Positions 11,939-19,062 of a stretch of DNA of 22,380 nucleotides are shown piece after piece (positions within the stretch are counted from its first letter, which is position 1; each line of letters begins with the position of its first letter). The stretch is taken from NCBI GenBank assembly GCA_037446215.1, contig JBBIJB010000022.1, positions 2,733 through 25,112 of the forward strand, given 5' to 3'. The position numbers were made by a program, and so were the translations under genes. Source of the DNA: Armatimonadota bacterium. GTDB taxonomy: Bacteria; Sysuimicrobiota; Sysuimicrobiia; Sysuimicrobiales; Humicultoraceae. The notes under the pieces were generated by a model, which had not been told where the DNA came from, made no database searches, and saw only the letters and a list, made by a program, of their open reading frames with translations.

Positions 11939-12712
11939 CTACACAGGCCTCCCGAGGGCAGGGCCCCGCCTTGGATACGGCTGAGGGGTTGGGGCGTGCT
12001 TCCGCAGCACGAGCGCGGCCGTCTTCCGGCCGGGCTCCGGGAAGGAGCGCACCTCGCAGGCTTCAACTGAGGCGCCCATGGCGCCCACCAGGGCGGCGAT
12101 CTCTCCGATCTCTTGCTCTACCGCGGGGCCCTTCAGCAGCACCGCCGCCCCGCCGACCTCGACCAGCGGCAGGGTGAGCTCCACCGAAACCGCGGTCCTG
12201 GCCGTGGCCCGCGAGACGACGACGCCGAACGCCTCCCTGAACCCCTCGGCGTGCCCCATCTCCTCGGCGCGGGACCAACGCACCGCCAGGTCCGGTAGGT
12301 TGAGCGAGGCCCTCACCTCCTCCAGGAAGGCGCACCGCTTGCGGGAGGCCTCGATCAGGACGACCTCCAGGTCGGGCCTGGCGATCTTCATCGGAACCCC
12401 AGGGAACCCGGCGCCGGACCCGACGTCAGCCAGCCTGCACCCTCGGGCCGGGCAGAGCACGGCGAGGGGCACAAGCGAGTCGAGGAAGTGGCGCAGGACT
12501 ACCTCGGTGTCCGAGGACGCCGAGGTGAGGTTCAGGCGCCCGCGCCAGCGAGCGATCTCTTCGAGGTAGGACCGGAAGCGCTCGCTTGCTCCTGGTGGAA
12601 GCGCAACACCGAGCGCCCCGGCGCCCTCCACCAGCTTTGCCAGGGCCGGGCTCACCCGGCCAGGGTCAAGGGTTGTCTCCGGGGGAAGTTGAGTGGTGCT
12701 CTTCTTTTCCAT
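11939..12712 (-). CDS. rsmG: 16S rRNA (guanine527-N7)-methyltransferase RsmG/GidB
   Basis: NLTS, HFLDSL, SAM motif DVGSGAGFPG, RAEE, VSRA, YPRR. Start position uncertain (ATG 12712 overlaps the jag end). Confidence 0.93.
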   Translation of the reverse strand: MEKKSTTQLPPETTLDPGRVSPALAKLVEGAGALGVALPPGASERFRSYLEEIARWRGRLNLTSASSDTEVVLRHFLDSLVPLAVLCPARGCRLADVGSGAGFPGVPMKIARPDLEVVLIEASRKRCAFLEEVRASLNLPDLAVRWSRAEEMGHAEGFREAFGVVVSRATARTAVSVELTLPLVEVGGAAVLLKGPAVEQEIGEIAALVGAMGASVEACEVRSFPEPGRKTAALVLRKHAPTPQPYPRRGPALGRPV

Positions 12713-13346
12713 GGTCTGGGCCCTCGCCCGGGGAGGCGGGCCTGACCACGACGTGCCTGTAGGGCTCCTCCCCGCTGCTCTCGGTCGCCACCCGAACATC
12801 GTCGCGAAGCGCGATGTGGGCCGCGCGGCGGTCCCTGGGCCCCATGGGCTCGAGGGCTACCGGCCTCCCCTGCGCGGCCGCCTGCTCGGCGGCACGATGA
12901 GCCGCCTCGGCGATCGCTTGCTCGTGCTTGGCGCGGTAGCCCATGGCGTCCACGGTCAGGGCGACGCGGCGGCCGAGTCGCTGTTGCACATGCAGGGCGA
13001 CCAGGAGCTCGAGGGCGTCGAGCGTACGCCCGTTCTTGCCTATGATCCCCTTGAGGTCGGGCCCCTTGAGTACCACCTGGATGCCGTCTTCCGACCGCGA
13101 GGCCTCGCCCTGGGCCTCGTGGCCCATCAGGCGAAGGATCTCTAGGGCGACGTCGCGGGCGACCTCGTGGTCCGCCTGGAGAGGCGACAGCCTCACCCGC
13201 GCCTCGCGGCCTCCAAACCCGAGGAGCGCGGGCCGCGGCTCCTGGAGCACCTCCACGGTCACCTGGTCCCGCGGCACACCCAGCTGGGCGAGCGCGGCCG
13301 CGATCGCCTCGGCGATAGTCCTCCCGGTACCCTCGGCCGTGTCCAT
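12666..13346 (-). CDS. jag: RNA-binding protein Jag/KhpB/EloR (Jag_N-KH-R3H)
   Basis: Jag_N (GRTIAEAIAAALAQLG...LLGFGG), KH GxxG (IIGKNGRTLDAL), R3H (RDRRAAH...SSGEEPYRHVVV). ATG at 13346 overlaps the yidC stop (TGATG). Confidence 0.93.
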   Translation of the reverse strand: MDTAEGTGRTIAEAIAAALAQLGVPRDQVTVEVLQEPRPALLGFGGREARVRLSPLQADHEVARDVALEILRLMGHEAQGEASRSEDGIQVVLKGPDLKGIIGKNGRTLDALELLVALHVQQRLGRRVALTVDAMGYRAKHEQAIAEAAHRAAEQAAAQGRPVALEPMGPRDRRAAHIALRDDVRVATESSGEEPYRHVVVRPASPGEGPDHGKEEHHSTSPGDNP

Positions 13347-14036
13347 CAGTCGCCCGAACCCTTCTTGGCCGCCTTCGCTGTCTGCGCGCGCGGCTTCCTG
13401 GGGGGCGCGACGCCGATCTTCTTGGGCAACCCAACGACGATCAGGTACTCGGCGATGTAGATGAACGTGGAAGAGATCCAGTAGAGGGACATGCCGACAG
13501 GGAACTGGGTCGAGAACCAGGCGATGAGGAAGGGCATGAACACGAACATCCTGGCCTGCTGGGGGTCGGTTATGGACAGCCGCTGCTGCATGTATGTCGA
13601 GGAGGGGGATCATGGCGATCAACGGGAACTCCCCGATCACGGCGAAGGTGGGGTGCGCCTCGAGGGCGACGCCGAGGAACGTCTCTCCACCGAACAGGTT
13701 GGGCCTGCGCAGCAGCGCGAACAGCGCCCAGAGCACGGGCAGCTGCGCGAGCATCGGCAGGCAGCCGCTGAACGGGTTGACCTTGTTGGCCTTGTAGAGG
13801 TTCATCACCTCGGCGTTGAGCTGCCGCGGATCCTCCTTGTACTTGCGGCGCAGCACCTCCATCTGGGGCGCAAGGGCCTGCATCGCCTTCATCGAGTTGA
13901 GCTGCTTGCGCGTGAGGGGGTGCAAGACCACCTTGATGGCGAGGGTGAGCGTCACGATGGCAAGGGAGTAGCTGTGGGTCACCCCGTAGATCGCCTGCAA
14001 TCCGACGTTGAGCGTCGTGGCTATCGCTTCTATCAA
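13346..14036 (-). CDS. yidC: Membrane protein insertase YidC (short form lacking the large periplasmic domain); reading frame broken at about 13598-13609
   Basis: N-half ([20 protein letters not shown]...[15 protein letters not shown]) is in the 14036 frame. C-half (TYMQQRL...[24 protein letters not shown]) is in a different frame ending at 13346. Canonical position between yidD and jag. Confidence 0.9.
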
Positions 14037-14257: not shown

Positions 14258-14616
14258 TGAGCGCCCTCGCCCTGGTCGCCCAGTAGTCCGGCCGAGCCAA
14301 GGGCCTGCTCGACCGACCCTCTCAACTCCGAGAAAGAGGCCTCCGCTGCCGACTCCCTCGGCGTCACCACGATCTCCGTTCCCGGCGCGATCCTGCGTGC
14401 CAGGGCGCGGACGGCCTCGCGTAGGCGCCGGCGCAGCCGGTTTCGCCGAACCGCGGAGCCAAAGCGCCTACCGACGGCAACTCCCAGGCGCACGCCTCCG
14501 CGGTCGCCTGGGAGGTAACGTATGACGACGAGCGGCGACGACCGGCGGCCGCCTTCGCGGTAGACGCGCCGGAACTCCTTCTCGCTCGCCAGGCGCTCAA
14601 GGGGGCCAGCGCACAC
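14254..14616 (-). CDS. rnpA: Ribonuclease P protein component
   Basis: [34 protein letters not shown] (RNR motif). Confidence 0.95.
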
Positions 14617-14626
14617 GGCTCCGTCC

Positions 14627-14767
14627 TTAGCCTGAGACGGTGAGCCGATGCCTCCCCTTTGCCCTGCGGCGGCTGAGGGTACGGCGACCGCCGGGTGTGC
14701 GCATCCGGGAGCGGAACCCGTGGACCCGGCTGCGCGATCTGTTCTTAGGCTGAAAGGTGCGCTTCAC
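14627..14767 (-). CDS. rpmH: 50S ribosomal protein L34 (not in the ORF track)
   Basis: Manual translation [46 protein letters not shown] (46 aa). GTG start with SD AGGAGG. Confidence 0.97.
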
Positions 14768-14794
14768 GTTTGTGCCTCCTGGCAGAACAGAGAA

Positions 14795-14823
14795 ACTATA
14801 TCACAGGGTCCTTCCCGCGGCAA
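14795..14823 (-). promoter_or_regulatory. Sigma70-type promoter for the rpmH operon
   Basis: Minus strand TTGCCG-17 nt-TATAGT with extended -10 TG, 27 nt upstream of the rpmH start. Confidence 0.7.
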
Positions 14824-14884
14824 CGAACACCTCGCATCAAGGGACAACCTGCGATCGGGCCGATCGGTAGGGCCCCCGCGCGGG

Positions 14885-15143
14885 TGTTGGAAAGCTGTAG
14901 AAAACCGGGGGGGCTGTCCACATGTTTGTGCGCGGCCCGGTCACGGGGTCGCGCCTTCCCCCGCCTTTCTTCGGGTATTCCGGCCGGAAATCCACAGGGG
15001 GCCGTATGTTATACACATAGTTCTCCACACCTGTGGATAACCCCGGGGGTTCTCTTCCTGTTTGGGTTTCGGCCCGCTGGTCCCTGGAGGAGGAGCGGCG
15101 GCGAGAGGCGAAACCCCCCTACTGTCGGTCCGCGTTATCCACA
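14885..15143. promoter_or_regulatory. oriC part 1: DnaA-box cluster
   Basis: Consensus boxes TTATACACA 15009-17, TGTGGATAA 15032-40, TTATCCACA 15135-43. Near-consensus TTCTCCACA 15021-29, AAATCCACA 14988-96, CTGTCCACA 14914-22, TGTAGAAAA 14896-904, TGTTGGAAA 14885-93. Confidence 0.88.
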
Positions 15144-15258
15144 GGAGTGCCTCTCCGCTGACGGTCCCGGGGTCGTCGTGAAATCGGACGGTCGGCCGTG
15201 GGCCGGATAGGAGTCCATTGATGCGCGGGCAAACTATCGGCTGCGTGTGGCGGAGACG

Positions 15259-16053
15259 ATGTCGATACGTGAACTGATAGCAAAGGTTCTCGAGGAGCGC
15301 CGGTCGCTCGATGGCCCCGCAGAGGGTACCGATGATCCTGAGGTGCGGCTGGCGGTCTACGACTCCCCGCTGGCGGCTCCCCAGGTTCACTCCCTGCGAA
15401 GCGACGACTTCCGAACGCTGGTGGGCGAGATCTCCGCGCGCACCTACTCTGTGTCGAGGGAGCGGGGGGGCAAGATCCCCTTCGTGGTGATCCAGGAGAT
15501 AGTCGAGAACCTCATACACGCCTACTTCCGAAACGCGACGGTGACGATCCTCGACGACGGGAACACCATACGCGTGGCGGACGGCGGCCCCGGCATAGCC
15601 AACAAGGAGGGCGCGCGTCTCCCCGGGTTCTCGACCGCGACCTCAGAGATGCGCAGGCACATCCGGGGTGTGGGCAGCGGACTGCCGGTAGCCAGCGAGC
15701 AGATGAGCTTCCTTGGAGGGACGCTGACGATCGAGGACAACCTGGAGGCGGGTACCGTGGTGACCCTCAGCATCCGCCGCGCGCCCGAGCCCTCCGGCAT
15801 CCCCGCTCATGAACCGCCCGGCCGGCGGCCGCCCTCCATAACGGCACGCCAGAAGAAGGTGCTGCTCTTGATAGCGGAGCTGGGGGCGGCGGGGCCGACG
15901 TCGGTCGCAAAGGAGCTGGACATCAGCCACAGCACCGCCTACAGGGAGCTGCAGGCCCTGCAGGCCCTCAACCTCGTGAGCGGCAAGGGGCACGGCAGGC
16001 GCACCCTTACGGAAGAGGGAATCGCCTGCCTCGACGAGATCTTCAGGCCGTAG
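15259..16053 (+). CDS. GHKL (HATPase_c) ATPase/kinase domain fused to C-terminal winged helix-turn-helix; function unknown
   Basis: N-box QEIVENLIH, G1 DGGPGI, F-box PGFST, G2 GVGSGL, terminal GTVVTL. Pro-rich linker, then wHTH ITARQKKVL...TSVAKELDISHSTAYRELQAL...RRTLTEEG. Start ATG 15259 (SD GGCGGAG) or GTG 15247. Confidence 0.85.
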   Translation: MSIRELIAKVLEERRSLDGPAEGTDDPEVRLAVYDSPLAAPQVHSLRSDDFRTLVGEISARTYSVSRERGGKIPFVVIQEIVENLIHAYFRNATVTILDDGNTIRVADGGPGIANKEGARLPGFSTATSEMRRHIRGVGSGLPVASEQMSFLGGTLTIEDNLEAGTVVTLSIRRAPEPSGIPAHEPPGRRPPSITARQKKVLLLIAELGAAGPTSVAKELDISHSTAYRELQALQALNLVSGKGHGRRTLTEEGIACLDEIFRP

Positions 16054-16114
16054 GTGGCGGAGGGAGCCCTCCGCGCGCGGCCGCGAGACGGGAGAACCTG
16101 GAGAGGAGATAGGC

Positions 16115-17476
16115 GTGTCAACCGAGGTCTCGGCAGTCGAGCTGTGGGAAGAGGCACTGCGCAGGATAGAGAGCCAGCTCAACAAACCCACCCTCGAGTC
16201 GTTTCTCCGGGTGATGCGCCCGGCAGGGCTCCAAGCCGACACCTTCCACGTCACCGTTCCCAACCGGTTCGCCAAGGATTGGGTGGAGCAACGGCTGATG
16301 GGTGTCATTCGAGGCGCGCTGAAGGAAACGGCCGGCCGCGAGATCGCCGTCCGGGTTTCGGTCGTGGACGGACCGGTCTCCTACGGACAGCCCGCCGCGG
16401 CGGCGCCCCCTGCTCCGGGCCCGGCTCAGATCAGGAGTCCAGAGGGGATGCACCTCTCCCCCAAGTACACCTTCGAGACATTCGTTGTCGGGGCGGGAAA
16501 CCGGTTCGCGCACGCGGCATCGCTCGCCGTCGCCGAGGCGCCGGCAAGGGCCTACAACCCGCTGTTCATATACGGCGGCGTCGGGCTCGGCAAGACCCAC
16601 CTCCTGCAGGCCATCGGGCATAGGGTGCTCCGAAACGCGGGGATCGCCCGCGTCGCCTACTTGAGCAGCGAGAAGTTCACGAACGAGCTGATAAACTCGA
16701 TTCGGGACGACAAGACGCTGGAGTTCCGACACCGCTACCGCAGCGTGGACGTGCTGCTGATCGACGACATCCAGTTCCTCGCGGGAAAGGAGCGCACCCA
16801 AGAGGAGTTCTTCCACACCTTCAACACGCTTCATGAGTCGAGCCACCAGATAATAATCTCGTCGGACCGCCCGCCGAAGGAGATTCCGACCCTCGAGGAC
16901 CGGCTCCGGAGCCGGTTCGAGTGGGGGCTGATAGCCGATATCCAGGCACCCGATCTTGAAACCAGGATAGCGATCCTGAAGAAGAAGGCGGAGATCGAGG
17001 GGATGCTGGTGCCCGACGAAGTCTCCGAGTTCATCGCCCAGCGCATCCAGACCAACATCCGCGAGCTGGAGGGAGCTCTCGTGCGGGTCGTCGCCTACGC
17101 CTCGCTGACCCGGTCGCCGGTGAGCGCCGAGCTGGCCGCGGAGGTGCTGCGCGACCTGCTGCCGCCGGCCAGGGCGCGGGTGGTCACGATACAGGCGATA
17201 CAGACCGCGGTCGCCGCCTTCTTCGGGATCCGCGTGGAGGAGATGCGCGCCAAGCGGAGGACGAAGGGCGTGGCCTTCCCTCGGCAGGTGGCGATGTTCG
17301 TGGCGAGAGAGATCACCGACGCCTCCCTTCCGCGAATCGGGGAGGAGTTCGGAGGCCGCGACCACACCACGGTCATGCACGCCTGTCAGCGGGTGCGTGA
17401 GGTGCTGGACCGCGACTCCCATCTTGCCGCGAGCGTGAAACGGCTTGTGGAAGACCTGCAGCGCCAGAGCGGATAA
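16115..17476 (+). CDS. dnaA: Chromosomal replication initiator protein DnaA
   Basis: KYTFETFVVG, YNPLFIYGGVGLGKTHL, LLIDDIQF, RLRSRF, NIRELEGAL, GGRDHTTVMHA. GTG start with SD GAGGAG. Confidence 0.99.
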   Translation: MSTEVSAVELWEEALRRIESQLNKPTLESFLRVMRPAGLQADTFHVTVPNRFAKDWVEQRLMGVIRGALKETAGREIAVRVSVVDGPVSYGQPAAAAPPAPGPAQIRSPEGMHLSPKYTFETFVVGAGNRFAHAASLAVAEAPARAYNPLFIYGGVGLGKTHLLQAIGHRVLRNAGIARVAYLSSEKFTNELINSIRDDKTLEFRHRYRSVDVLLIDDIQFLAGKERTQEEFFHTFNTLHESSHQIIISSDRPPKEIPTLEDRLRSRFEWGLIADIQAPDLETRIAILKKKAEIEGMLVPDEVSEFIAQRIQTNIRELEGALVRVVAYASLTRSPVSAELAAEVLRDLLPPARARVVTIQAIQTAVAAFFGIRVEEMRAKRRTKGVAFPRQVAMFVAREITDASLPRIGEEFGGRDHTTVMHACQRVREVLDRDSHLAASVKRLVEDLQRQSG

Positions 17477-17663
17477 CCTGTGCACAAGGGGCGTGCCCGG
17501 AGCGGGAGGAGCGGGGGGGCGAGGCCGGGGTCGCGGATGCACAATCCATCCACGTCCCGTCAACAGGGGGCGACCGGCGCAAAGGCGCGTCGCTCATGGA
17601 TGCCGGCAATTGCCAACACTGTCAACACCCTCTATTAGTACTACTGTAGTTATTGATTAAATA
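17468..17663. promoter_or_regulatory. oriC part 2: degenerate DnaA boxes, DnaA-trios and AT-rich unwinding element
   Basis: TGTGCACAA 17479-87. Boxes at 17535, 17546 and 17557. Abutting TTGCCAACA/CTGTCAACA 17610-27, CCCTC spacer, TAT-TAG-TAC-TAC 17633-44, then AT-rich TGTAGTTATTGATTAAATA. Confidence 0.8.
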
Positions 17664-17684
17664 CCTTAGGAGAAGGAGACGGGC

Positions 17685-18794
17685 ATGCAGTTTGTGTGCG
17701 CTCATGAGAACCTGAGCAAGGCGGTTGCCCTGGTGGGCCGCGCGGTATCGACCCGGACCACGATGCCGATACTGGGCAACATACTCCTGGAAACCCGAAA
17801 GGACGCGGTCAAGCTCGCCGCCACCGACCTGGACCACGGGATCCAGACCGAGGTCCCCGCCAAGGTCAAGAAGGGCGGCGCCATCACGCTTCCCGCCCGC
17901 CTCTTCTCCGAGATCGTCTCCAACCTGCCCGGAGAGCCGGTGCTGGTGAAGGTCGGCGAGGGCGGAACCGACGTGGAGGTTCAGTGCGACAGGGTCACCT
18001 ACGACCTGGTGGGCCTTCCGGCCACGGAGTTCCCCCTGATGCCCGAGCCCGAGGCCGCGCCCGTGGCCACCGTGGACGCCGTTCTCCTGCGCGCGATGAT
18101 CCGTCAGACGGAGTTCGCGGTTTCAACCGACGAGACCCGCGCCTTCCTCACGGGTCTCTATCTGGTGATGGACGGTAAGGAGGTCCGCCTGGTGGCGACC
18201 GACGGCGGCAGGCTCGCCCTGCGCACCGGGGCCCTGCCGAAGCCGGCCACACAGAAGGTCGGGGTCATCGTTCCCGCCAAGACGATGCAGGAGCTTGCAC
18301 GGGCGCTCTCCGGAGTGGAGGGAGACGTCGAGATATCGCTCGCGGAGAATCAGGTCCTGTTCACGATGCCGGGCGCCAGGCTCGTGAGCCGGCTGCTGCC
18401 CGGGCCGTTTCCCAACTACCAGCAGGTGATCCCCCAGGCGTATAAGCAGACGATCACGGTCGGGGTGGAGCGCCTGATCGACGCGGTCCGGCGCGTGGCC
18501 ATCACCGCCAGAGACTCCGCCAACGTCGTGAGGCTGCAGGCAGAGGGCGACACAATGACCCTGGCCTCGAACACTCCCGACTACGGCAGATCCGAGGAGA
18601 AGGTACCAGTCTCTACCGAGGGCGAGGTGATCGCCACCGCCTTCAACGCGCGCTATCTCCGCGAGTGCCTTTCGGTGCTGGACGTGGGCGAGGTGACCCT
18701 GCAGCTCACCGGTCCGCTCAGCCCGGGCGCGGTGCGTCCCGCGGGCCAGACGGACTACACCTATGTCCTGGCGCCGGTGCGGGTTGCCACCTAG
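17685..18794 (+). CDS. dnaN: DNA polymerase III beta sliding clamp
   Basis: MPILGNILL, ATDLD, ATDGGRLA, SRLLPGPFPNYQQVIP, AFNARYL, C-terminal LAPVR. Directly follows dnaA. Confidence 0.98.
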   Translation: MQFVCAHENLSKAVALVGRAVSTRTTMPILGNILLETRKDAVKLAATDLDHGIQTEVPAKVKKGGAITLPARLFSEIVSNLPGEPVLVKVGEGGTDVEVQCDRVTYDLVGLPATEFPLMPEPEAAPVATVDAVLLRAMIRQTEFAVSTDETRAFLTGLYLVMDGKEVRLVATDGGRLALRTGALPKPATQKVGVIVPAKTMQELARALSGVEGDVEISLAENQVLFTMPGARLVSRLLPGPFPNYQQVIPQAYKQTITVGVERLIDAVRRVAITARDSANVVRLQAEGDTMTLASNTPDYGRSEEKVPVSTEGEVIATAFNARYLRECLSVLDVGEVTLQLTGPLSPGAVRPAGQTDYTYVLAPVRVAT

Positions 18795-19062
18795 GCGCGA
18801 GGTCGGCATCCACACCGAGAGCATCGCCCTGGGGGCCCTCCTGAAGTGGGCGGGCCTGGTCGGAACCGGGGGCGAGGCCAAGGAGATGGTGGCCTCCGGG
18901 CGCGTGAGAGTGAACGGCAGCCCAGAGACCCGCCGCGGCCGGCGCGTCGCCCCGGGCGACGTCGTCGCGATCCTGGGCGGGCCGGAACTGGTCGTCTCGA
19001 GGGAACCCTCCAGGGAAGCGAATGGCCCTGCTCCGACGGATCCGGCTGAAGGCATTCCGTAA
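18784..19062 (+). CDS. yaaA: S4-domain RNA-binding protein YaaA family
   Basis: IALGALLKWAGLVGTGGEAKEMVASGRVRVNGSPETRRGRRVAPGD. Canonical dnaN-recF position. Start inferred at TTG 18784. Confidence 0.88.
   Translation: MPPRREVGIHTESIALGALLKWAGLVGTGGEAKEMVASGRVRVNGSPETRRGRRVAPGDVVAILGGPELVVSREPSREANGPAPTDPAEGIP

What the first reader, a model, noticed from the sequence alone, without database searches (positions are those of the whole stretch)
15259..16053. GHKL kinase/ATPase-winged-helix gene lodged inside the origin directly upstream of dnaA: candidate undescribed replication-initiation regulator
Seen: the rpmH-dnaA interval, normally gene-free, contains an ORF of about 264 aa between the DnaA-box cluster and dnaA. 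It is on the same strand, 61 GC-rich nt before dnaA with no evident promoter between, so it is probably co-transcribed and placed under DnaA-box control. It has all GHKL nucleotide-binding boxes (EIVEN, DGGPGI, GFST, GVGSGL, GT) but no recognisable His-phosphoacceptor/dimerisation domain, sensor, TM segment or adjacent response regulator. The stretch DGGPGIANKEGARLPGFST...GSGLP resembles the partner-switching Ser/Thr kinases RsbT/SpoIIAB. The C-terminus is a wHTH. Its GC-rich codon usage looks native and no mobility genes are nearby. Established: known oriC/DnaA regulators (SeqA, Hda, DiaA/HobA, YabA, SirA, Soj, CtrA, MtrA, AdpA) do not have this architecture. Inference: an ATP/ADP-sensing, DNA-binding switch or kinase acting on oriC, the dnaA promoter or DnaA itself. 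I recall similar hypothetical 'ATP-binding proteins' in Coriobacteriia, but this is unverified memory.
Basis: partly seen in the sequence, partly recalled or inferred. Interest (0 to 1): 0.82.

Follow-up and report, generated by a model that had tools for sequence, protein, structure and literature searches.

The report
Conserved ATPase–DNA-binding gene heading dnaA
A real, unstudied gene joining a kinase-type ATP-binding module to a DNA-binding winged helix sits directly in front of the replication initiator gene dnaA here and in hundreds of species from three bacterial phyla, which makes it a strong but untested candidate for a new controller of chromosome replication.

Summary
Window 15259-16053 (+) encodes a 264-aa protein, here called X. 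It has a variable N-terminal helix, a GHKL ATP-binding domain with every nucleotide-binding motif conserved, a flexible linker and a MarR-like winged helix.

X lies 61 nt before dnaA, behind a DnaA-box cluster whose box positions are conserved, so it most likely leads an X-dnaA-dnaN operon.

- **Own order:** X is single copy and present in 80/94 genomes (54/54 high-quality). dnaA lies directly downstream in 77/80.
- **Coriobacteriia class:** 184/201 genomes carry X, and 128/132 are adjacent. The other four are contig ends or circular wrap.
- **Bacillota-phylum sample:** 31/301 genomes carry X. All 10 loci inspected have dnaA adjacent.

The nearest solved structure is the uncharacterised GHKL-winged-helix protein DIP2311 (3LMM, Z 15.3). 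Histidine-kinase catalytic domains and SpoIIAB tie at Z about 11.8. X has no HisKA domain, sensor, membrane segment, response regulator or STAS partner.

Six literature searches found nothing, and databases call it 'ATP-binding protein'. The function is inferred: an ATP-gated, DNA-tethered regulator of dnaA supply or DnaA activity.

One lead: none of the 31 Bacillota carriers has YabA, against 138/270 non-carriers. This is not phylogenetically controlled.

This scan has already reported the same family on at least 8 other genomes, with the same reading.

The parts
14627..14767 (-). rpmH (ribosomal protein L34), divergent left neighbour
   Evidence: 46-aa [13 protein letters not shown].... rnpA, yidD and yidC/jag follow on the same strand.
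14896..15143 (.). DnaA-box cluster upstream of X. Boxes start at 14896(-), 14914(+), 14988(+), 15009(+), 15021(+), 15032(-) and 15135(+).
   Evidence: Box positions at about -250, -238, -227(-) and -124 from the X start recur in the 29 loci of the order examined.
15163..15216 (+). Conserved non-box blocks (consensus CGCTGAC..GTCC.GGGGTCG..GCGTGAAATC and GGTAGGAGTCC). Candidate promoter or leader of the operon.
   Evidence: Alignment of 29 upstream regions of the order. Its function is not tested, and no sigma-70 consensus match was found.
15259..16053 (+). Gene X: 264-aa GHKL ATP-binding plus winged-helix protein
15259..15336 (+). X residues 1-26: N-terminal helix (3-17) and loop, poorly conserved
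   Evidence: Model. Mean column conservation is 0.17.
15337..15480 (+). X residues 27-74: conserved beta-hairpin (R-L-A-V-Y-D) and helix 51-68 preceding the N-box helix
   Evidence: This part is included in the structural alignments to DIP2311 (model residues 23-174) and SpoIIAB (35-176).
15481..15780 (+). X residues 75-174: GHKL core with N box (E80, N84, H87), G1 (D108-G-G-P-G-I), PGF(S/T)TA lid, G2 (G137-V-G-S-G-L) and G3 (G165-T)
   Evidence: Pfam HATPase_c. Invariant columns are given.
15781..15837 (+). X residues 175-193: Pro-rich flexible linker, very variable in length between lineages
   Evidence: pLDDT 61-76 and conservation 0.22. Forms of 464-535 aa differ only by a longer linker.
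15838..16050 (+). X residues 194-264: MarR-like winged helix-turn-helix, recognition helix 224-236 (S-T-A-Y-R), wing G-x-R-x-L-T
   Evidence: VIA Z 12-13.7, rmsd 1.2-2.0 A over 70-75 residues. Conservation of the recognition helix is 0.62.
16054..16114 (+). 61-nt X-dnaA spacer with the dnaA ribosome-binding site
   Evidence: No promoter-like or terminator-like site and no DnaA box with <=2 mismatches.
16115..17476 (+). dnaA
   Evidence: Bac_DnaA, Bac_DnaA_C and DnaA_N. It is the only DnaA-family gene found in the genome.
17477..17684 (.). dnaA-dnaN spacer holding the most AT-rich 40-mer of the window (17635-17674, 72% AT). Candidate unwinding element of a two-part origin.
17685..18794 (+). dnaN
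   Evidence: Three beta-clamp domains

Best explanation
X is a dedicated ATP-binding, DNA-binding regulator of the dnaA/oriC locus. It is most likely made from the same transcript as DnaA and DnaN, from a promoter region covered by DnaA boxes.

**Proposed mechanism.** The C-terminal winged helix anchors X to origin-proximal DNA. The flexible linker lets the GHKL module act nearby. The nucleotide state of the GHKL module (ATP bound, hydrolysed or exchanged) switches its activity. The result is control of how much DnaA is made and/or how DnaA assembles at the origin, coupling initiation to cellular ATP status.

**Shown:**
- the gene and its domain structure;
- intact nucleotide-binding motifs;
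- single-copy core status;
- near-invariant position directly upstream of dnaA in three phyla;
- the DnaA-box cluster in front of it.

**Inferred:**
- co-transcription;
- DNA binding and its target;
- ATP dependence;
- any effect on dnaA expression, DnaA or initiation.
For: **Gene order (main evidence).**
- In the own order, 77 of 80 X-bearing genomes have dnaA 27-122 nt downstream on the same strand. The other 3 are cut by contig ends.
- In the Coriobacteriia-class sample, 128 of 132 genomes with both genes listed are adjacent. Two more wrap round a circular start and two are split over contigs. In 9 of them the two matches overlap.
- In the Bacillota-phylum sample, all 10 inspected loci are adjacent, at GC 0.30-0.60. 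Only 10 of the 31 carriers were inspected.

**Core status.** X is present in 54/54 high-quality genomes of the order and is single copy in the own genome.

**ATP pocket under selection.** N84, D108, G110, G112, G137, G139, G141 and G165 are invariant, and E80 is >=90% conserved, in 50 sequences down to 33% identity.

**Winged helix.** The recognition helix and wing are conserved across phyla, which argues for a conserved DNA target. The only 8-mers shared upstream of X in all three clades are DnaA-box variants.

**Upstream region.** Box positions relative to the X start are conserved.

**X-dnaA spacer.** No promoter-like or terminator-like site was found.

**Architecture.** It is constant; longer forms only lengthen the linker.

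**Lead only.** 0 of 31 X-carriers in the Bacillota-phylum sample have YabA, against 138 of 270 non-carriers. The own genome has no YabA match at 91% completeness.
Against: - There is no functional datum of any kind.
- No conserved palindrome or other non-DnaA-box motif that could serve as an operator was found upstream across the three clades.
- The winged helix lacks the flanking dimerisation helices of MarR proteins. Structural alignments cover only the core of the MarR chains, for example residues 31-110 of 131.
- At least 6 genomes of the Coriobacteriia-class sample have dnaA with about 2 kb of assembled upstream DNA and no X. X is therefore not indispensable for a dnaA locus of this type.
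- The YabA exclusion is not phylogenetically controlled. No taxonomy is given for those genomes and relatives are not independent.
- Gene order alone does not show a shared function.
Confidence: 0.5

Rival explanations
1. X is a protein kinase or partner-switching factor. Like SpoIIAB or RsbW, the stand-alone GHKL domain binds a protein partner in its ATP form and phosphorylates it or an antagonist. DnaA, made from the next gene, would be the target.
For: - X aligns structurally with SpoIIAB over 128 of its 140 residues (Z 11.8, rmsd 3.5 A). The match includes the extra helix before the N-box helix.
- It has an N-box with a His three residues after the Asn (N84, H87 invariant). From memory, this resembles the N-A-x-x-H-G/A motif of anti-sigma kinases.
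- A JGI pipeline names relatives 'anti-sigma regulatory factor (Ser/Thr protein kinase)'.
- It has an HK-type F-box/lid and G2 box.
Against: - The spIIAB model scores 22.1 bits against a cut-off of 135.
- No HATPase_c_2 match was reported at E<=0.1.
- No STAS-domain or sigma-factor gene is adjacent.
- SpoIIAB is not a better structural match than histidine-kinase CA domains (CpxA Z 11.8). It is 3.5 Z units below DIP2311.
- This reading does not explain the conserved DNA-binding domain.
Confidence: 0.12
2. X has a function unrelated to initiation, for example a global or stress transcription factor or a nucleoid protein. It merely rides on the dnaA operon for origin-proximal dosage or cell-cycle-linked expression.
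For: - Other genes near origins are conserved in position without acting on initiation. Examples in this window are rsmG, jag, yidC and rnpA.
- Some relatives lack X altogether.
- The closest structural relative, DIP2311, has no reported link to replication. The literature search for it gave nothing relevant in its listing.
Against: - X takes the position immediately 5' of dnaA, with spacers of tens of nt or overlaps, in three phyla and at 33-75% protein identity. This is far tighter than ordinary origin-region synteny.
- No copy was found anywhere else. Every case that could be judged is next to dnaA.
Confidence: 0.2
3. X is a GHL-type (MutL/MORC-like) ATP-driven DNA clamp or compaction factor. 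It dimerises on ATP binding and acts on origin DNA topology rather than on transcription or DnaA.
For: - The N-box E-I-V-E-N-L-I-H-A resembles, from memory, the E-L-V-E-N-S-L-D-A motif I of MutL and MORC.
- A profile of X matches MutL residues 16-78 (E 7e-6).
- The Glu four residues before the Asn is >=90% conserved.
- An N-terminal helix could act as a strap.
Against: - There is no transducer domain. The protein goes from the GHKL fold into a linker and the winged helix.
- The G2 box and lid are of histidine-kinase type.
- The N-terminal 26 residues are the least conserved part, at 0.17.
- Dimerisation was not tested.
Confidence: 0.08
4. The ORF is not a real gene, only a chance open frame in GC-rich DNA.
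For: High-GC DNA gives many long chance frames. One search lists several overlapping ones.
Against: - 2021 homologues at E<=1e-3 and 379 representatives of 50%-identity clusters at E<=1e-30.
- A Pfam domain above its cut-off.
- An AlphaFold model with mean pLDDT 91.3.
- Conservation in genomes of 30-70% GC.
Confidence: 0.01

Closest known systems
DIP2311 of Corynebacterium diphtheriae (PDB 3LMM), an uncharacterised structural-genomics protein
   Same: It is the best structural match of the GHKL part: Z 15.3, 150 residues, rmsd 2.8 A, 17% identity. Foldseek gives E 6e-8 over 276 alignment columns, so the match extends beyond the GHKL domain. That the following domain of DIP2311 is a winged helix, in the same order as in X, is my recollection.
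   Different: - DIP2311 has about 230 further residues before the GHKL domain (chain range 234-409 aligned). From memory these are an AlbA_2/Schlafen-like domain of COG2865 proteins. X has only about 22 residues there.
- No sequence-level family match was seen.
- I know of no link of DIP2311 to dnaA, and none appeared in the listing.
Catalytic (CA, HATPase_c) domains of sensor histidine kinases (KinB 3D36, BceS, CheA P4, CpxA, HK853, WalK)
   Same: - These are the best sequence matches among solved structures (KinB E 5.6e-9).
- Pfam HATPase_c scores above its cut-off.
- They share the N, G1, F-like, G2 and G3 boxes.
- Structural Z is 11-11.8.
   Different: - X has no HisKA/DHp domain, sensor, membrane segment or partner response regulator.
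- X has an extra beta-hairpin and helix in front of the N-box helix, and a winged helix behind.
Anti-sigma factor Ser kinases SpoIIAB/RsbW (partner switching)
   Same: Both are small stand-alone GHKL domains with a helix preceding the N-box helix. X aligns over 128 of SpoIIAB's 140 residues (Z 11.8). This gives a model of ATP-dependent binding of a protein partner.
   Different: - X falls below the family thresholds.
- No STAS antagonist or sigma factor is nearby.
- X carries a DNA-binding domain that these proteins lack.
Known regulators of DnaA/oriC encoded elsewhere (YabA, SirA, Soj, Hda, DiaA/HobA, SeqA, CtrA, MtrA, AdpA), and the Bacillus-type dnaA-dnaN operon with a two-part origin
   Same: - The locus is of the Bacillus type: DnaA boxes upstream of the operon and an AT-rich element between dnaA and dnaN.
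- X would be another lineage-specific accessory factor of a universal initiator.
- X and YabA were never found together in the 301 sampled genomes.
   Different: - None of these regulators has a GHKL domain, and none is the first gene of the dnaA operon (established knowledge, recalled).
- X matches none of them in Pfam or NCBIfam.
- No function of X is shown.
MarR-family winged-helix repressors
   Same: The fold of residues 190-264 matches at Z 12-13.7 and rmsd 1.2-2.0 A, including MarR bound to operator DNA (5H3R).
   Different: Only the winged-helix core is present, without the MarR dimerisation helices. Pfam MarR_2 scores 15.3 bits against a cut-off of 27.

Membership tests
Two-component sensor histidine kinase | HATPase_c catalytic domain with N, G1, F, G2 boxes | tested here: met
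   PF02518 at 44.2 bits against a cut-off of 26.4. The boxes are conserved.
Two-component sensor histidine kinase | HisKA/DHp dimerisation domain with phospho-acceptor His | tested here: not met
   No HisKA-type family at E<=0.1. The model shows one short helix, a beta-hairpin and one helix before the N box, not a DHp hairpin.
Two-component sensor histidine kinase | Sensor or membrane segment and a cognate response regulator | tested here: not met
   The maximum 19-residue hydropathy is 1.08. The neighbours are rpmH and dnaA, and no response regulator is in the window.
Partner-switching anti-sigma Ser kinases (SpoIIAB/RsbW/RsbT) | Match to the family models | tested here: not met
   TIGR01925 spIIAB scores 22.1 bits against a cut-off of 135. 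No HATPase_c_2 match at E<=0.1.
Partner-switching anti-sigma Ser kinases (SpoIIAB/RsbW/RsbT) | Compact stand-alone GHKL fold with a helix before the N-box helix | tested here: inconclusive
   Z 11.8 over 128 of 140 residues, tied with histidine-kinase CA domains and below DIP2311.
Partner-switching anti-sigma Ser kinases (SpoIIAB/RsbW/RsbT) | Adjacent STAS-domain antagonist and sigma factor | tested here: not met
   None among the genes of the window. The rest of the genome was not searched for STAS genes.
GHL ATPases (MutL, GyrB, Hsp90, MORC) | Motif I with catalytic Glu four residues before the Mg-binding Asn | tested here: met
   E80 is >=90% conserved and N84 is invariant. The profile matches MutL 16-78 at E 7e-6.
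GHL ATPases (MutL, GyrB, Hsp90, MORC) | Transducer domain following the GHKL fold | tested here: not met
   The GHKL fold ends at about residue 174, followed by a low-confidence linker and a winged helix.
DIP2311/COG2865-type GHKL plus winged-helix proteins | GHKL domain of this subtype followed by a winged helix | tested here: met
   Z 15.3, 150 residues. Foldseek E 6e-8 over 276 columns.
DIP2311/COG2865-type GHKL plus winged-helix proteins | N-terminal AlbA_2/Schlafen-like domain (recalled) | tested here: not met
   X has about 22 residues before the aligned part, where DIP2311 has 233. No such Pfam family was reported for X.
MarR-family repressors | Winged helix-turn-helix fold | tested here: met
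   Z 12-13.7, rmsd 1.2-2.0 A.
MarR-family repressors | Family model above threshold and flanking dimerisation helices | tested here: not met
   MarR_2 scores 15.3 bits against a cut-off of 27. Only the core of the MarR chains is matched.
Regulators of DnaA/oriC (as a functional class) | Binds DnaA or origin DNA and changes initiation | not testable with these tools
   Only context evidence is available. This needs ChIP, EMSA, interaction and ori/ter assays.

The most novel reading that the evidence does not exclude
X founds a new class of initiation controllers. It would be a GHKL nucleotide switch, tethered by its winged helix to the DnaA-box cluster. In one nucleotide state it captures or remodels DnaA as DnaA is made from the same mRNA. 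It would set initiation frequency according to ATP status, and in its lineages it would fill the role that YabA, SirA or Hda play elsewhere.
Probability: 0.3. Interest if true: 0.9.

Novelty: new variant of a known kind. Interest (0 to 1): 0.78.

Why it matters
DnaA is universal, but its regulators are lineage-specific and known only for a few model phyla. Almost nothing is known for Coriobacteriia, which are common human gut and oral bacteria, for the Armatimonadota-labelled lineage of this window, or for many uncultured Bacillota.

A single-copy core gene fixed immediately upstream of dnaA in hundreds of species is the most obvious candidate for the missing regulator. It would bring GHKL nucleotide chemistry into initiation control, where it has not been described.

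The question is directly testable. Cultured carriers exist, for example Olsenella uli. Natural relatives without the gene also exist for comparison.

Tried and rejected
- **Complex prediction.** DnaA (27-row alignment) was folded with X (50-row alignment). Scores were 0.02 and 0.00 against a mark of 0.32, and the controls were not run. The tool's verdict is 'no answer', so this is evidence neither for nor against binding.
- **RNA evidence.** No RNA holder was listed for window 14600-17700, so co-transcription could not be examined.
- **Natural X-DnaA fusions.** Long open frames around X in two genomes (703 aa, 676 aa) looked like possible fusions. X and dnaA are not in one frame there, and I take the long frames to be chance read-through upstream of X in GC-rich DNA. 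A search among longer proteins found 27 at E<=1e-15 (464-535 aa), of which 26 carry PF02518 + PF25213 and one only PF02518. These are long-linker forms, not fusions.
- **Shared operator.** A search for a second shared DNA motif upstream of X in the three clades found only DnaA-box variants.
- **Promoters.** The sigma-70 consensus scan found no promoter on the + strand anywhere in 14600-17800. The real operon promoter is therefore unidentified, and the organism may use another consensus.
- **Literature.** Six full-text searches were read as listings and abstract starts only. None described a gene of this kind upstream of dnaA, and no paper was opened.
- **Taxonomic range by name.** The names retrieved give Armatimonadota, Coriobacteriia, Actinomycetes, Firmicutes/Bacillota, Clostridia and Limnochordia MAGs, plus one partial Bryobacteraceae-labelled MAG protein. 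I do not count that last one as a further phylum.
- **Finer GHKL classification.** I considered a domain-only fold to rank GHKL subfamilies more finely. I dropped it because the second-look alignment already separated DIP2311 from the rest.
Full report
**What is in the window**

One search lists an open frame at 15247-16053 (+). The ATG at 15259 gives 264 aa. It is the likelier start because homologues begin at the same M-S/A-I/L-R and GGAG lies 5 nt upstream.

To the left, on the other strand, lie rpmH (14627-14767), rnpA, yidD and yidC/jag. To the right, on the same strand, lie dnaA (16115-17476) and dnaN (17685-18794). Further out come an S4_2 gene, recF and gyrB on the right, and rsmG, parA and parB on the left.

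This is a canonical origin neighbourhood, and no mobility gene is in the window. GC3 of X (0.849) equals that of dnaA (0.850).

**The non-coding parts**

- All four matches to TTATCCACA with at most one mismatch in the 22 kb window lie in 15009-15143. The expectation is 0.72, and 1 of 100 shuffles reached four.
- With two mismatches allowed, there are 7 boxes in the 491-nt rpmH-X spacer, against 1.25 per kb window-wide.
- There are none in the 61-nt X-dnaA spacer and one in the dnaA-dnaN spacer.
- The dnaA-dnaN spacer holds the most AT-rich 40-mer of the whole window (17635-17674, 72% AT).
- The locus therefore looks like a two-part, Bacillus-type origin. X lies between the upstream box cluster and dnaA, not inside the unwinding element.
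- The X-dnaA spacer carries a ribosome-binding site. It has no promoter-like or terminator-like site. That scan found no + strand promoter anywhere in the region, so it says little about where the operon promoter is.

**The protein**

Pfam gives HATPase_c at residues 77-174 (44.2 bits, cut-off 26.4). The C-terminal 70 residues give only sub-threshold winged-helix matches. NCBIfam gives nothing near a cut-off.

In a 50-sequence alignment reaching down to 33% identity, these residues are invariant: N84, H87, G101, D108, G110, G112, G123, G137, G139, G141, N161, G165 and V167. E80, R197, G212, P213, R229 and R248 are at least 90% conserved. Both the ATP pocket and the recognition helix and wing are therefore under selection.

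The AlphaFold model is confident (mean pLDDT 91.3, pTM 0.64). Its parts are:

| Residues | Feature |
|---|---|
| 3-17 | helix |
| 28-47 | beta-hairpin |
| 51-68 | helix |
| 75-88 | N-box helix |
| to about 174 | rest of the GHKL fold |
| 175-195 | low-confidence Pro-rich linker |
| 196-261 | winged helix |

No membrane segment is present. Conservation is lowest in residues 1-26 (0.17) and in the linker (0.22). It is highest in the GHKL core (0.63) and the recognition helix (0.62).

**Structural relatives**

- By sequence profile, the best solved relatives are histidine-kinase catalytic domains (KinB 3D36 at E 5.6e-9, BceS, CheA). MutL (7e-6) and SpoIIAB (3e-4) follow.
- By fold, Foldseek puts DIP2311 of Corynebacterium diphtheriae (3LMM) first, at E 6e-8 over 276 columns.
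- In the second-look alignment of Foldseek's best 1000 chains, DIP2311 scores Z 15.3 (150 residues, 2.8 A). SpoIIAB (128 residues) and CpxA (116 residues) both score 11.8.
- The independent wide search gave the same order with smaller gaps: 12.6, 11.5 and 11.3.
- The C-terminal domain matches MarR-type winged helices at Z 12-13.7 and rmsd 1.2-2.0 A.
- X is thus closest to the GHKL plus winged-helix half of an uncharacterised structural-genomics protein. It is not a member of the histidine-kinase, anti-sigma-kinase or GHL families by their defining features (see the membership table).

**Distribution and gene order, the main result**

*Family size.* X has 2021 homologues at E<=1e-3 in the 90%-clustered collection. 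It has 379 representatives of 50%-identity clusters at E<=1e-30, 548 at 1e-10 and 9462 at 1e-3. The last figure is the generic HATPase_c background.

*Own genome.* X is single copy.

*Own GTDB phylum.* The 94 genomes held all belong to one order.
- 80 have X at E<=1e-10, including 54 of 54 high-quality genomes.
- 80 have dnaA.
- Comparing the places, 77 of the 80 X-bearing genomes have dnaA on the same contig and strand, 27-122 nt after the X match (median 56). The other three are cut by contig ends.
- These counts include two unpublished genomes, G017 and G025, both adjacent. Without them the counts are 78/92 and 75/78.

*Coriobacteriia class.* A pattern scan of species-representative genomes found a Coriobacteriia MAG (53% identity) and a 'Bacilli' MAG (36%) with the same order: rnpA(-), X(+), dnaA(+), dnaN(+).
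- In a 201-genome sample of the class of the first MAG, 184 have X at E<=1e-30 and 146 have dnaA at E<=1e-40 with that query.
- Of the 132 genomes with both genes in the printed rows, 128 are adjacent. One search printed 150 of its 184 matches.
- Of the other four, two have X at the end and dnaA at the start of a circular contig, and two are split over contigs.

*Bacillota phylum.* In a 301-genome sample of the phylum of the second MAG, 31 have X at E<=1e-25. All 10 loci fetched have dnaA directly downstream, at GC contents from 0.30 to 0.60. The other 21 were not inspected.

*Names.* Sources label the proteins as coming from Armatimonadota, Actinomycetes, Atopobiaceae, Olsenella (including O. 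uli), Parolsenella, Firmicutes/Bacillota, Clostridia and Limnochordia. The name is always 'ATP-binding protein', 'histidine kinase', 'hypothetical' or a pipeline label. Olsenella uli is in Coriobacteriia.

**Against universality**

Seventeen of the 201 class genomes had no X. For six of them I fetched dnaA with about 2 kb upstream and found no X even at E<=10. One of them shows rpmH(-), a spacer of roughly 750 nt and then dnaA. X can therefore be absent from a locus of this type.

**Upstream region in relatives**

In 29 loci of the order, the boxes sit at nearly fixed distances from the X start: about -250, -238, -227 on the other strand, and -124. An alignment also shows two conserved non-box blocks, at 15163-15185 and 15207-15216. 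Two of the 29 loci come from the unpublished genomes.

Across the three clades (30, 12 and 11 loci), the only 8-mers shared upstream of X are DnaA-box variants, present in 83-100% of loci. No separate candidate operator emerged.

**A lead on function**

In the same 301-genome sample, YabA (PF06156) was found in 138 genomes. None of these is among the 31 X-carriers. The table is 0/31 against 138/270 (Fisher 1.5e-9).

The own genome has no YabA match at 91% completeness and only one DnaA-family gene.

The exclusion is striking but not phylogenetically controlled. The tool gives no taxonomy for these genomes, the carriers may form one or a few clades, and a small protein can be missed in a six-frame search. 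I treat it as a hypothesis to test, not as support.

**Mechanism**

*Shown:*
- a conserved single-copy gene;
- an intact nucleotide pocket;
- a conserved DNA-reading surface;
- a tether of very variable length;
- a fixed place immediately 5' of dnaA behind DnaA boxes.

*Inferred:* X is co-transcribed and co-regulated with DnaA, binds origin-proximal DNA, and uses its nucleotide state to control DnaA supply or DnaA assembly.

I put 0.5 on this broad reading. Within it I cannot choose between an autoregulatory transcription factor and a direct DnaA or oriC modulator. Rivals are a SpoIIAB-like kinase or partner switch (0.12), a function unrelated to initiation that rides on the operon (0.2), and a GHL-type DNA clamp (0.08).

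**Novelty**

Six full-text searches, read as listings only, found no description, and no database gives a functional name.

Earlier agents of this scan reported the same family on at least eight other genomes with the same reading. My counts are independent of theirs.

The domains are known, and a structural analogue of unknown function exists. The conserved X-dnaA-dnaN operon and a GHKL protein as candidate initiation regulator are new.

Noticed in passing
window 12666-14036 (-), with 13346-13591 (-): yidC looks frameshifted. The 456-aa ORF joins the first two thirds of the YidC domain (profile positions 1-106 of 163) to Jag_N, KH and R3H. A separate 81-aa ORF in another frame carries the YidC C-terminus (profile 112-161). 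This could be an assembly indel in the MAG or a real break.
   Followed up: partly
window 17600-17674: The dnaA-dnaN spacer ends with two CCAACAC/TCAACAC repeats. They are followed by TAGTACTACTGTAGTTATTGATTAAAT, the most AT-rich stretch of the window. From memory, this resembles the DnaA-box plus DnaA-trio plus AT-rich arrangement of Bacillus-type unwinding regions.
   Followed up: partly
window 15163-15216: Two sequence blocks conserved across the order that are not DnaA boxes: CGCTGAC..GTCC.GGGGTCG..GCGTGAAATC and GGTAGGAGTCC. They lie 45-95 nt before the X start and could be a promoter, leader or operator.
   Followed up: no
window 15021-15040: Two DnaA boxes face each other and form the palindrome TCCACACCTGTGGA. 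The 8-mer ACACCTGT occurs upstream of X in 60% of the order's loci but in only 17-18% of the other two clades.
   Followed up: partly
L061-L066 (G131, G196, G105, G117, G108, G126): Six genomes of the Coriobacteriia-class sample have dnaA but no X within about 2 kb upstream. L062 shows the plain rpmH-spacer-dnaA layout. These are natural X-less comparators.
   Followed up: partly
301-genome sample of the phylum of G095: X and YabA (PF06156) were never found in the same genome: 0/31 carriers against 138/270 non-carriers. This is not controlled for relatedness.
   Followed up: partly
G051:C248:10482-11270 (-): In one genome of the order, X matches in two pieces (residues 18-185 and 175-264) just upstream of dnaA. 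This could be a frameshift or an assembly error. In G014 the dnaA match contains one TAA.
   Followed up: no
window 18763-19062 (+): A small S4_2-domain gene lies between dnaN and recF. From memory this is the position of yaaA in Bacillus.
   Followed up: no
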